From: a virus
DNA: 64,000 nucleotides
Virus record (IMG/VR): IMGVR_UViG_3300030339_000011
Coordinates: 1-64,000 of that record
Strand: one strand, 5' to 3'
Both the position numbers and the translations under genes were made by a program. A model generated the notes under the pieces. That model worked only from the letters and a program-made list of their open reading frames with translations, searched no databases and was not told where the DNA came from. This document shows, in pieces, positions 56,832 through 58,163 of the stretch. The stretch's first letter is position 1. Every line of letters begins with the position of its first letter.

Positions 56832-57016
56832 TATAATGTGACCACATACCATTACATATGTACATACCTTAACACATACCTTAACATTATTCACACGTGA
56901 CCACACAAATGCCATAGACATATACCTTAACATATCATAAGGACAACACGTACATATAAATGTCCTGAACATTATCTACACAATAAATGCTCTTAACATT
57001 TTATTTGTTGAGAGCA

Positions 57017-57282
57017 TTTATTGTTTTCTATACACTACACAGTATATCTTTATATGTATATAGTTCCGTAACACCACATCATGTGATATACTTTTCTTTC
57101 ATCATTCAACGAGGGTCTAATGAACTTACTCTCCTGATGCGTTAATTCGGGTGAACTCAACCCTATATAAAATGTATAGATACATTTTATTAATAAGTTT
57201 AATTTATTATACATATGTATCTACATTAATAAAAAGTTTATTGTTTTCTATACACTACACAGTATATCTTTATATGTATATA
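57017..57282. repeat. Exact ~46-bp direct repeat TTTATTGTTTTCTATACACTACACAGTATATCTTTATATGTATATA in two copies about 220 bp apart
   Basis: Copies at 57017-57062 and 57237-57282. Hairpin AAATGCTCTTAACATTTTATTTGTTGAGAGCATTT lies just upstream at about 56984-57020. Confidence 0.6.
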
Positions 57283-57399
57283 AATATAATATACAGTAGT
57301 CTATCATACTTGTATGCTTATACATATAACTATACTGATGTCATTGATTATAATACTATGCATAGTTATAACTATGTTGTCATGGTGGATGAATGATAT

Positions 57400-57760
57400 A
57401 CACAGGTTGTGTGTAATACTTGGGTACTACTGGGGTGCTATCCACTGGGTGGTATCTGGTATCAACATATCAATACTGCTGCTAAGGTATCTAAGTACCA
57501 TGATAGAAATCTTAGAAATTTTTAAAGAGTTCTTCACAAGGTTGTCCATCAAGAGAGGGAGCGAAGAAGTTCATGAACATTTGTCGGAGATGACGACGCG
57601 CGAAAGTCGGCCGTGACTTACTAAGTGTTAATACGAATTCGCACTTGAGTCGGATGTTCATGAACACTTGCCTACTAGACTTGGTGATGGTGTTGAGCGA
57701 CTTGCGCGTGTAGAGTGTGTATGCAGGTATAGGGCAGCCATGGCGAAAAATTGTTAATAT
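57400..57760. other. GC-rich non-coding block (locally much higher GC than the 24% background)
   Basis: Contains the 10-bp palindrome GTTCATGAAC twice (about 57568 and about 57655), plus CGCGCG and GTCGGCCGTGAC. Only a low-complexity ORF overlaps it. Confidence 0.4.
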
Positions 57761-57779
57761 TTGAGTATGTTAATATTTG

Positions 57780-58160
57780 AAAAATTCCCCATGTGTTTTT
57801 TATATCAATATTTGAATTTTTTTTTTGGAAAAATTTTAGAGGTATTTTACCCAGTTAAAATATTGAAATATGAGAAATCAATTTTTTTTTTTTGGAAATT
57901 TTTTGAGTATTTTGTATCAGAGTATTTTTTAAATAAATTAAGTTGGATATTGAAATTCAAAAAATTTTTTTTGGTAAAAATTTAGAGTTATTTTACCCAG
58001 TTAAATTGTTACTATATGTTAAATTCAAAATTTTTTTTTGGGGAAAAATTTTAGAGTTATTTCTCAGAGTTTTTTTATGTTAAGTAATTTTGTACAATAA
58101 AGAGTTATATTTAGGAATCAAAAAATTTTTTTGGGAAAAAAATTTGAGGTATTATTCTCA
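57780..58160. repeat. Five degenerate tandem copies of a ~65-80-bp unit (TTCAAAAAATTTTTTTTGGRAAAAATTTTAGAGKTATTTTACCCAGTTAAA...)
   Basis: Direct reading. Units start at about 57815, 57885, 57955, 58025 and 58110. Confidence 0.55.
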
Positions 58161-58163
58161 GTG

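What the first reader, a model, noticed from the sequence alone, without database searches (positions are those of the whole stretch)
56832..58163. 1.3-kb non-coding island with an exact 46-bp direct repeat, a GC-rich block carrying GTTCATGAAC palindromes, and five degenerate tandem ~70-bp repeats
Coding density is near 95% everywhere else. Here 1.3 kb is ORF-free and compositionally mixed. The 57400-57760 segment is strikingly GC-rich. It could be a structured ncRNA, an imported fragment, or an operator cluster. The 57780-58160 tandem units (..TTTTTGGAAAAATTTTAGAGGTATTTTACCCAGTTAAA..) resemble iteron-like arrays.
Basis: seen in the sequence. Interest (0 to 1): 0.55.

Follow-up and report, generated by a model that had tools for sequence, protein, structure and literature searches.

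The report
Conserved structured non-coding island, megaphage
The largest gene-free gap in this stretch of an uncultivated giant bacteriophage holds a 270-base GC-rich element that three related phages keep almost unchanged. Its centre can fold into a four-armed hairpin structure, so it is most likely an undescribed phage RNA gene or DNA control site, but no function has been shown.

Summary
All three observations are real. The exact 46-bp direct repeat, the two GTTCATGAAC palindromes in the window's GC peak (up to 51% against 24%) and five degenerate T-tract units are all present. They lie in the largest ORF-free gap of the window (1,332 nt).

The window comes from a fen/peat megaphage. One protein is 50-53% identical to the 462-735-kb 'Mahaphage' genomes. 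Two sister lineages (relA, relB) carry the island in the same place.

The island has three layers:
- The left 400 nt is lineage-variable repeat debris plus a strong terminator hairpin.
- A 270-nt core (57500-57765) is 88-94% identical, while adjacent non-coding DNA is 34-50% and genes are 65-83%. It shows no codon periodicity and no conserved ORF.
- The T-tract array is kept in kind, but its spacing varies. One 48-bp unit varies between relB strains.

The two palindromes pair as a 13-bp stem that encloses three hairpins (z -2.4 to -4.0). Substitutions avoid paired positions (p=1.5e-4), but there is no compensatory covariation.

There is no Rfam, tRNA or protein-family match.

Best reading: a new phage non-coding RNA gene, read from the + strand (about 0.4). 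Main rival: a DNA protein-binding or origin-type site (about 0.27). Function is unproven.

The parts
56832..56979 (+). A/C-rich zone of short direct repeats (CA(C/T)ATACC(T/A)TAACAT x3) directly after the LRR gene stop. It varies between lineages.
   Evidence: Repeat families D4 and D8. GC skew is -0.45. Identity to relA is 70-78% and to relB is at random level. relA carries a 54-nt piece of it three times, plus a CAATCATAAGGA 12-mer array.
56980..57024 (+). Strong hairpin with a 19-bp stem and 7-nt loop, followed by TTTTC. It looks like an intrinsic terminator for the LRR operon.
   Evidence: terminator scan. MFE -25.4 kcal/mol, z = -10.4. Inverted repeat I3.
57017..57062 (+). Copy 1 of the exact 46-bp direct repeat. 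It starts inside the 3' arm and U-tail of the hairpin.
57063..57236 (.). 174-bp segment found only in the window lineage, lying between the two repeat copies. It is unstructured apart from a 3' hairpin at 57171-57227. It contains a degenerate copy of a cassette-gene 3' end (57191-57211 resembles 56813-56833).
   Evidence: No homologue in relA or relB. z = +0.3 and +0.8 for the body, -4.0 for the hairpin. Repeat families D9 and D7 are collinear with D3.
57237..57282 (+). Copy 2 of the 46-bp repeat. This is the ancestral copy: relA has it once at 95% identity.
57283..57499 (+). AT-rich spacer, conserved with relA (63-96%) but not with relB. It contains ATATA.TATACA, invariant in all three lineages (57284-57295), and a TATAAT box (57349-57354) that aligns with TGnTACAAT in relB. 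This is a candidate promoter zone and is not demonstrated.
   Evidence: (relB promoter-like TATACA-17-TACAAT with TG). Promoter-like sites are not enriched over shuffles.
57500..57765 (+). Conserved GC-rich core. It is 88-94% identical in three lineages, non-coding, and single-copy.
   Evidence: Identity profile and substitution phase of 17/15/12. No conserved ORF. Covariance model R1 hits once per genome at E of about 1e-107 to 1e-111. GC peak.
57569..57665 (+). 97-nt four-way junction. P1 (57569-57581 pairs with 57653-57665) is formed by the two GTTCATGAAC palindromes. It encloses H1 (57582-57598), H2 (57604-57619, with a hypervariable loop at 57608-57615) and H3 (57620-57650).
   Evidence: consensus fold; z = -3.3, -2.4 and -4.0 in the three lineages; 12 of 27 unpaired columns vary against 6 of 70 paired columns, p = 1.5e-4; 97% of cells paired and 0 compensatory changes.
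57668..57765 (+). Highly conserved G/T-rich tail that is not structured. It ends in the invariant CAGGTATAGGGCAGCCATGGCG, which includes the GCCATGGC palindrome at 57737-57744.
   Evidence: Identity 86-94%. z = +1.3 on the + strand and +2.1 on the - strand..
57752..57816 (+). Short ATATTTGA(A) motifs (TGTTAATATTTGA x2, TATCAATATTTGAA) that lead into the array. The equivalent stretch in relB holds the 48-bp unit that is present once or twice in different strains.
   Evidence: Repeat families D13 and D14..
57807..58177 (+). Five degenerate units with consensus TTGAA - T7-12 - GG(G) - A3-7 - T2-6 - (A)GAGTATTTYACCCAG. GC is 17.5-19.5%. The last unit abuts the stop codon of the - strand gene.
   Evidence: The motif is absent from the rest of the window. 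relA and relB also have five units, with T-tract spacings of 54-116 nt.

Best explanation
The island is a composite, and only its centre is under strong constraint.

I read the conserved core (about 57500-57765, possibly starting near 57360) as a gene for a new, phage-specific non-coding RNA transcribed from the + strand. On this reading:
- The LRR operon ends at the 56980-57024 terminator.
- A new transcript starts in the AT-rich stretch downstream of the 46-bp repeat.
- The RNA folds into a 97-nt four-way junction, closed by a 13-bp stem made from the two GTTCATGAAC segments.
- A roughly 100-nt conserved, single-stranded G/U-rich tail follows. Because it is conserved but unpaired, it would be the part that contacts a partner (a protein or another nucleic acid).
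- The T-tract array lies just 3' of the core and would act as a termination or spacer zone.

The left 400 nt, including the exact 46-bp repeat, is recombination debris left by turnover of the neighbouring cassette genes.

Shown: conservation, non-coding character, hairpin architecture, and single-copy status in a syntenic position.

Inferred: that the element acts as RNA, its strand, its ends, and any role for the tail and the array.
For: 1. Constraint. The core is 88-94% identical among three lineages, while adjacent non-coding DNA is 34-50% and genes are 65-83%.
2. Not coding. Substitution phase is 17/15/12. No ORF is conserved, changes in candidate ORFs are mostly non-synonymous, and no frame opens under stop-codon read-through. 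Island ORFs match no family.
3. GC peak. This is the strongest GC peak of a 24%-GC window. In the more distant relative relC, a comparable 40-42% GC spike between convergent genes is an array of five tRNA genes. RNA genes are therefore what such spikes are in this phage group.
4. Fold. The 97-nt element folds better than shuffles in all three lineages (z = -3.3, -2.4, -4.0).
5. Where changes fall. Variable columns fall in loops: 12 of 27 unpaired against 6 of 70 paired (p = 1.5e-4). This includes an 8-nt run that is wholly replaced in the H2 loop.
6. Strand. Wobble changes (G-C to G-U, C-G to U-G, U-A to U-G) and several invariant G-U pairs fit the + strand only. The consensus fold is -52 kcal/mol on the + strand and -35 on the - strand.
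7. Upstream context. A very strong terminator-like hairpin lies upstream (z = -10.4), and a -10-like box aligns in all three lineages.
8. Precedent. Jumbo phages are known to encode ncRNAs (PMC7318152, seen).
Against: - No compensatory (double) change supports any pair: 30 of 35 pairs never vary. With three lineages, the structure is compatible with the data but unproven.
- Each arm of P1 is itself a perfect palindrome. An RNA stem does not need that, and it is typical of sites for dimeric DNA-binding proteins.
- The best-conserved 100 nt (57668-57765) is less structured than shuffled sequence.
- There is no canonical terminator after the core.
- Promoter-like sites are not enriched over shuffles.
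- No Rfam hit.
- There are no expression data.
- High identity could also come from recent exchange among phages that co-occur in the same samples.
Confidence: 0.4

Rival explanations
1. The island is a cis-acting DNA site, such as a replication origin, or a partition- or packaging-type nucleoprotein site. A dimeric protein binds the two identical palindromes, which sit 87 bp apart. Another protein loads on the five direct repeats. The T/A-tract DNA (17-19% GC) bends or melts.
For: - Two perfect 10-12-bp palindromes plus GCCATGGC, all invariant in three lineages.
- A locus-specific array of five direct repeats, found nowhere else in the 64 kb.
- The lowest GC of the neighbourhood lies in the array.
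- Unit copy number varies between strains.
- The + strand switches from A/C-rich to G/T-rich at about 57300, and the cumulative GC-skew minimum falls there.
- The four genes flanking the island are the only ones sampled that have negative coding-strand GC skew.
- The conserved but unstructured tail is easier to explain as a DNA site.
Against: - Unit spacing is irregular (54-116 bp) and not in helical phase, and units are only 65-74% alike.
- Across the window, GC skew tracks gene strand, not position.
- No neighbouring protein matches an initiator, terminase, ParB-type or HTH family, and the AF2 model of the 179-aa neighbour has no PDB fold match.
- The right-hand neighbour differs between lineages.
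- The 620-nt palindrome at the true divergence point (55.3-56.0 kb) looks more origin-like.
- relC lacks the element.
- About 200 nt of continuous conservation is more than binding sites need.
Confidence: 0.27
2. The island is a transcription-control region. The palindromes are operators for a phage repressor. The T-tract units are tandem promoters or UP-like elements that drive the gene to the right, or antisense RNA against the convergent gene.
For: - In relA the array lies about 105-130 nt upstream of a + strand 352-aa gene, which is followed by four more + strand genes.
- The repeated 15-nt motif GTTCATGAACAYTTG, with its internal dyad, looks like an operator (family D10).
Against: - In the window and in relB, the array runs into the 3' end of a convergent gene, so there is nothing to drive.
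- The units match neither the sigma-70 consensus nor this phage's own TATATATAGAA promoter-like box.
- The motif is absent from all other gene starts.
Confidence: 0.12
3. The island has no present function. It is recombination debris from cassette-gene turnover, plus a block recently exchanged between co-occurring phages, so the high identity reflects recency rather than selection.
For: - The left half is clearly unstable: a lineage-specific 174-bp insert, a 46-bp duplication, and 12-mer and 54-nt amplifications in relA.
- Contigs from two samples break exactly at the LRR stop.
- The window lineage and relB occur in the same sample, 3300030294.
Against: - Substitutions in the core are strongly non-random with respect to the hairpins (p = 1.5e-4).
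- All three pairwise identities are similar, so three independent recent transfers would be needed.
- The core has sharp, shared boundaries and the same position and orientation in all lineages.
Confidence: 0.12
4. The core encodes one or more very small proteins, for example the 19-codon ORF that starts at the second palindrome (MFMNTCLLDLVMVLSDLRV).
For: Read directly from the aligned sequences: this ORF keeps its length and its TAG stop in all three lineages, with a few synonymous changes.
Against: - There is no codon periodicity overall.
- Most changes in every candidate ORF are non-synonymous.
- Conservation continues unbroken outside any ORF.
- No family hit.
Confidence: 0.04

Closest known systems
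tRNA gene clusters of huge phages (for example the five tRNA-Leu genes of relative relC, L274 2358-2810)
   Same: - A GC-rich spike in a very AT-rich phage genome.
- It sits after a terminator hairpin in an intergenic slot.
- The central element is a four-way junction of cloverleaf type.
   Different: - ARAGORN and the Rfam tRNA models find nothing.
- The closing stem is 13 bp, not 7.
- There is no T-loop or anticodon-loop signature.
- A 100-nt unstructured conserved tail follows.
Iteron-type origins and repeat centromeres of plasmids and phages (lambda ori, P1 oriR, R6K gamma ori, F sopC). Named from general knowledge.
   Same: - A locus-specific array of direct repeats.
- A/T tracts.
- Adjacent dyad-symmetric sites.
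- Copy-number variation.
   Different: - The units are long (about 45 nt conserved), degenerate, and irregularly spaced at 54-116 bp.
- No recognisable initiator or ParB-type gene lies next to the island.
- The island includes a 270-nt GC-rich conserved block that such origins do not have.
Large phage-associated structured RNAs (GOLLD, ROOL) and the RNA-seq-defined ncRNAs of jumbo phages (for example PA5oct, PMC7318152)
   Same: - Phage-borne.
- Non-coding.
- Conserved only within a narrow group.
- Function unknown.
   Different: - No Rfam match to GOLLD, ROOL or any other family, even at E up to 10.
- Much smaller than GOLLD or ROOL.
- Expression has not been shown.
Rho-independent terminators
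   Same: The 56980-57024 hairpin with its U-rich tail fits the pattern.
   Different: This explains only 45 nt of the island.

Membership tests
tRNA / tRNA-like gene | Cloverleaf with 7-bp acceptor stem, T-loop and anticodon loop, detectable by ARAGORN or the Rfam tRNA model | tested here: not met
   ARAGORN finds 0 genes in the window, L001, L011, L019, L030 and L272. There is no tRNA or tmRNA hit in Rfam, even at E up to 10.
Any curated Rfam family (4,227 models) | Covariance-model score at or above the gathering threshold | tested here: not met
   One search gives 0 hits in the whole window. In one search the best hits are 25 bits or less against thresholds of 43-110, and all lie on the terminator hairpin.
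Structured non-coding RNA (generic) | Folding energy lower than shuffled sequence, in every homologue | tested here: met
   The 110-nt element gives z = -3.3, -2.4 and -4.0. This does not hold for the whole 391 nt (z = -1.2) or for the 3' tail (z = +1.3).
Structured non-coding RNA (generic) | Compensatory base-pair covariation | tested here: inconclusive
   There are 0 compensatory changes, and 30 of 35 pairs are invariant among only 3 lineages. Substitutions do avoid paired columns (p = 1.5e-4).
Structured non-coding RNA (generic) | A discrete transcript | not testable with these tools
   No expression data are available.
Iteron-type replication origin | At least three locus-specific direct repeats | tested here: met
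   Five units in each lineage, and the motif is absent from the rest of the window.
Iteron-type replication origin | Regular spacing or helical phasing of near-identical 17-22-bp repeats | tested here: not met
   Spacings are 65/83/66/95, 81/68/54/116 and 76/65/105/94 nt. Units are 65-74% identical.
Iteron-type replication origin | Adjacent initiator (Rep) gene | tested here: inconclusive
   The neighbours have no Pfam, PHROG, NCBIfam or PADLOC hit apart from the LRR domain. The AF2 model of the 179-aa protein has no PDB fold match. The right-hand neighbour differs between lineages.
Iteron-type replication origin | Position at the genome-wide skew or coverage switch | tested here: inconclusive
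   A local cumulative-skew minimum lies at about 57.2-57.3 kb, but across the window skew follows the coding strand. The whole genome and its read coverage are not available.
CRISPR array | Near-identical 23-50-nt repeats separated by unique spacers of similar length | tested here: not met
   The repeats are 65-74% identical and made of T/A tracts, at irregular periods. No Cas-like protein was found among the neighbouring proteins scanned.
Type III toxin-antitoxin RNA repeats (ToxI-like) | Exact tandem repeats of about 36 nt next to a ToxN-family gene | tested here: not met
   There is no exact tandem array. PADLOC finds no defence-family protein in the neighbours.
Intrinsic terminator (56980-57024 only) | G+C-containing stem-loop followed by a U-rich tract downstream of a gene | tested here: met
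   The stem has 19 pairs (5 of them G-C), the loop is 7 nt, and the tail is TTTTC. It lies 149 nt after the LRR stop, with z = -10.4.

The most novel reading that the evidence does not exclude
The core is a new class of megaphage RNA with two working parts. The first is the wholly replaced 8-nt loop of hairpin H2 (57608-57615), which sits in an otherwise invariant scaffold and carries lineage-specific recognition, so it would act as a programmable, guide-like determinant. The second is the conserved single-stranded G/U-rich tail, which is the effector or binding surface. On this reading the adjacent T-tract array is the platform for loading or processing the RNA.
Probability: 0.06. Interest if true: 0.75.

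Novelty: new member of a known kind. Interest (0 to 1): 0.45.

Why it matters
Megaphages of 0.5-0.7 Mb are known only from metagenomes, and attention has gone almost entirely to their proteins, tRNAs and CRISPR systems. A single-copy non-coding element held at about 90% identity, while surrounding DNA has randomised, marks something the phage needs. It is either a new RNA or the first recognisable cis-acting site (origin or control region) for this group.

Either outcome gives a concrete handle. A covariance model and exact coordinates now exist for metatranscriptome mapping, coverage-based origin mapping and wider homologue searches.

The effect is modest unless a function is shown.

Tried and rejected
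**Searches that led nowhere**
- Rfam at gathering and permissive thresholds, and ARAGORN: nothing.
- blastn against 50,697 phage records: nothing.
- tblastn of the GT25 neighbour against phages: nothing.
- My one metagenome scan and one genome scan used too loose a pattern (TTCATGAAC N55-80 GCAGCCATGG).
- IMG/VR scans with four other core motifs recovered only relA and relB. The remaining hits were chance matches in GC-rich coding DNA or coding repeats.
- The first 100 kb of the 735-kb phage LR756501 shares only the MVP-like gene, so it offers no synteny to use.

**Ideas rejected**
- Protein coding, including alternative genetic codes.
- A general phage promoter, because the motif is unique to this locus.
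- A sigma-70 promoter cluster, because such sites are not enriched.
- CRISPR or ToxI-like arrays.
- attP or integrase site: no integrase-like family was found among the neighbours scanned.
- Similarity of the core to any other part of the window: only chance matches of 11-13 nt.
- CATG-site clustering: the core has the window maximum, but it is modest, at 6 in 450 nt.

**Correction made during the work**
I first thought lineage 'relD' (L280) lacked the island. It is in fact relA, and that contig stops 0.9 kb short of the island.

Full report
**What the window is.** The 64 kb is 24% GC and densely packed with small genes in long same-strand runs. Two 600-aa proteins carry the T4 gp9/gp10 N-terminal domain. 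An 819-aa protein with a major-vault-protein shoulder domain is 50-53% identical over its full length to proteins of the uncultivated 462-kb and 735-kb phage genomes LR756500/501/503. Those genomes belong to the 'Mahaphage' clade; within it, all genomes of 634 kb or more were predicted to infect Bacteroidetes (PMC7162821). Proteins from the window occur on fen/peat metagenome contigs, and a sister lineage sits on contigs up to 711 kb. The window is therefore a piece of an uncultivated megaphage.

**Checking the observation.**
- The island is exactly the gap between the stop of a + strand LRR gene (56831) and the stop of a - strand 179-aa gene (58164). It is the largest ORF-free gap in the window.
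- The 46-bp repeat is exact.
- GTTCATGAAC occurs twice here and nowhere else.
- The block holds the window's GC maximum, 51% in 150 nt against 24 +/- 5%.
- Five T-tract units are present, at 65-74% identity and spacings of 65-95 nt. Tandem Repeats Finder does not call them.
- Short ORFs exist, but they have no family match and no conservation. No frame opens under read-through of any single stop codon.

**Relatives.** Ten metagenome contigs from different samples are 99.97-100% identical across 56000-59500. A pattern scan of IMG/VR for the palindrome pair found two diverged sister lineages: relA (L011, L013, L019) and relB (L030, later L272 and L285-L288). Both align with the island at 72-76%. 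L280, which I first took for a fourth lineage without the island, overlaps relA contigs at 99% and simply ends 0.9 kb short of it. The island therefore keeps the same order in all three lineages: LRR genes, island, GT25 glycosyltransferase. A more distant relative, relC (GT25 60% identical), lacks it. At one of its convergent gene junctions relC carries five tRNA-Leu genes, which produce a similar GC spike. No homologue exists in GenBank phages. My metagenome and genome pattern scans were too loose and returned only chance hits.

**Anatomy from the three-way alignment.** The island has three layers.

1. *56832-57236 is unstable.*
   - Its short A/C-rich repeats are shared with relA but amplified differently there: a 54-nt piece occurs three times, and there is a CAATCATAAGGA 12-mer array.
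   - The 174 bp between the two 46-bp copies exists only in the window lineage.
   - relA has a single copy of the 46-mer.
   - Repeat families D9, D7 and D3 are collinear. This pattern would arise if a 'gene 3' end plus downstream flank' module had been duplicated and then decayed.
   - Two contigs from different samples end exactly at the LRR stop, which points to strain heterogeneity at this cassette.
   - A 19-bp hairpin with a U-rich tail (56980-57024, z = -10.4) is a convincing terminator for the LRR operon.
2. *57500-57765 is the conserved core.* It is 88-94% identical in all three pairwise comparisons, while the 100 nt to its left are 34-50% identical to relB and genes are 65-83%. Its 44 variable columns fall 17/15/12 over the three codon phases. 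Candidate ORFs change mostly non-synonymously and are interrupted in relatives.
3. *57766-58177 is the T-tract array.* The unit type is kept (TTGAA, T7-12, GG, A3-7, T2-6, (A)GAGTATTTYACCCAG, five per lineage), but spacing is free at 54-116 nt. Two relB strains differ by exactly one 48-bp unit beside the core. The motif occurs nowhere else in the window.

**Structure of the core.**
- The two palindromes pair with each other as a 13-bp stem, which closes a 97-nt four-way junction with three hairpins.
- The element folds better than shuffled sequence in each lineage (z = -3.3, -2.4, -4.0).
- Variable columns are concentrated in unpaired positions: 12 of 27 against 6 of 70, Fisher p = 1.5e-4. Most striking is a run of eight consecutive replaced bases in the loop of hairpin H2.
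- G-U pairs and wobble substitutions favour the + strand, at -52 against -35 kcal/mol for the consensus fold.
- There is no compensatory change at all: 30 of 35 pairs never vary.
- The best-conserved 100 nt (57668-57765) are less structured than shuffles.
- Each arm of the closing stem is itself a perfect palindrome. An RNA helix does not need this, and a dimeric DNA-binding protein would.
- Covariance models R1 and R2 find one copy per genome and none in relC; R1 also finds none at the other IMG/VR motif hits L276-L279 and L289-L296.

**Weighing the explanations.**
- *Non-coding RNA gene (about 0.4).* I favour this reading, with the + strand as the coding strand, on four grounds: the GC-spike analogy with tRNA arrays in this phage group, continuous conservation over 270 nt, the loop/stem substitution pattern, and the upstream terminator.
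- *DNA site of origin, partition or operator type (about 0.27).* This is the main rival. It is supported by the palindromes, the locus-specific repeat array, the very AT-rich tract, a local strand-composition switch near 57300, and the fact that the four flanking genes are the only ones sampled with negative coding-strand GC skew. Several results count against it. Spacing is irregular. Skew otherwise follows gene strand. No initiator-like neighbour was found. A more origin-like 620-nt palindrome lies at the real divergence point 1 kb to the left.
- *Promoter or operator region.* This fits relA, where + strand genes follow the array. It does not fit the window or relB, where the array meets the end of a convergent gene.
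- *Neutral debris or recent exchange.* This fits the left part of the island but not the patterned substitutions of the core.

**Novelty and score.** The element matches no described RNA family and no annotated phage sequence. It is confined to three closely related megaphage lineages from peat. It is best filed as a new, unnamed member of the broad class of conserved phage non-coding elements, with function unknown. Interest is moderate at 0.45. The conservation signal is clean, megaphage non-coding biology is unexplored, and the finding is directly testable with existing metatranscriptomes. The comparative depth is shallow, though, and nothing yet points to a mechanism without precedent.

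Noticed in passing
window 55304-55998 (arms 55327-55411 / 55845-55949; inner arms 55453-55476 / 55785-55808): The divergent intergenic region 0.9 kb left of the island is a roughly 620-nt imperfect palindrome. It folds as a long rod on both strands (z = -8.4 and -6.9). It is conserved in relA, where 150 pairs are predicted, none is broken and 4 are compensatory. It has no credible Rfam match (only two far-sub-threshold hits). It could be an origin, a large structured RNA or a cruciform, and it may deserve its own investigation.
   Followed up: partly
window 18.6-56.8 kb, about 60 ORFs (for example 44927-45427, 46340-46858, 56265-56831); also L011, L030 and L274: Dozens of small proteins with different middles (LRR, ankyrin, 'GDYV' and others) share the same N-terminus, MK(Y/H)IKxFE or MKIxRFNES. 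They also share the same C-terminus, (K/N)KFN(I/L)*. Two further families share the N-termini MNKEELxxWFxNKFxSCYPV and M(I/L)NIQLASEEWV. The conserved gene ends may be targeting signals or recombination handles for cassette exchange.
   Followed up: partly
L009 and L010 (ENA contigs), ending at window 56833: Two assemblies from different samples break exactly at the stop codon of the LRR gene. This suggests strain-level replacement of the LRR cassette next to the island.
   Followed up: no
window 59649-59679 and 59698-59728: A 31-nt direct repeat, TTTGGGGAACGCGTCTCTAATTGATTAGGCT, occurs twice in a GC-richer (41%) intergenic region upstream of a tail-fibre-like gene. A small 27-codon ORF (59456-59539) and a terminator-like hairpin (59564-59588) lie just before it.
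   Followed up: no
window 43347-43357(-), 59749, 61950, 63627, 59435; near-matches at 38983(-), 40885(-), 51576, 23256: The motif (T/A)ATATATAGAA lies 12-24 nt upstream of the ATG of the tail-fibre-like genes and a few others. It looks like a phage-specific, T4-late-like promoter box. None occurs in the island.
   Followed up: partly
window 7965-10424 (-): An 819-aa protein carries major-vault-protein shoulder, vault-repeat and SPFH/Band-7 domains. It is 50-53% identical to proteins of the 462-735-kb phages LR756500/501/503. It is the only gene shared with the first 100 kb of LR756501.
   Followed up: partly
L274 2358-2810 (relC, IMGVR_UViG_3300029983_000015): Five tandem tRNA-Leu genes (anticodons taa x2, aag, caa, tag) lie between convergent genes and are bracketed by strong hairpins. 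This is a striking single-amino-acid tRNA set in a phage rich in leucine-rich-repeat genes.
   Followed up: yes
window 55999-56831 and 58164-59356: The four genes flanking the island are the only sampled genes with negative coding-strand GC skew (-0.02 to -0.20). Their paralogues elsewhere are positive. Either they were inverted recently, or there is a local position-dependent bias.
   Followed up: partly
window 63651-64000 (gene runs off the window): Another M(I/L)NIQL(A/V)SEEWV tail-fibre-like gene opens with a long G-x-x repeat rich in Gly, Ser and Thr (GTSGQNGTSGTAGRSGTSGQNG...). This gives a 47% GC block.
   Followed up: no
L019 about 1700-1960 (relA), aligned to window 56950-57236: relA carries a tandem array of the 12-mer CAATCATAAGGA (about 14 copies) where the window has the first 46-bp repeat copy and the 174-bp insert.
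   Followed up: no
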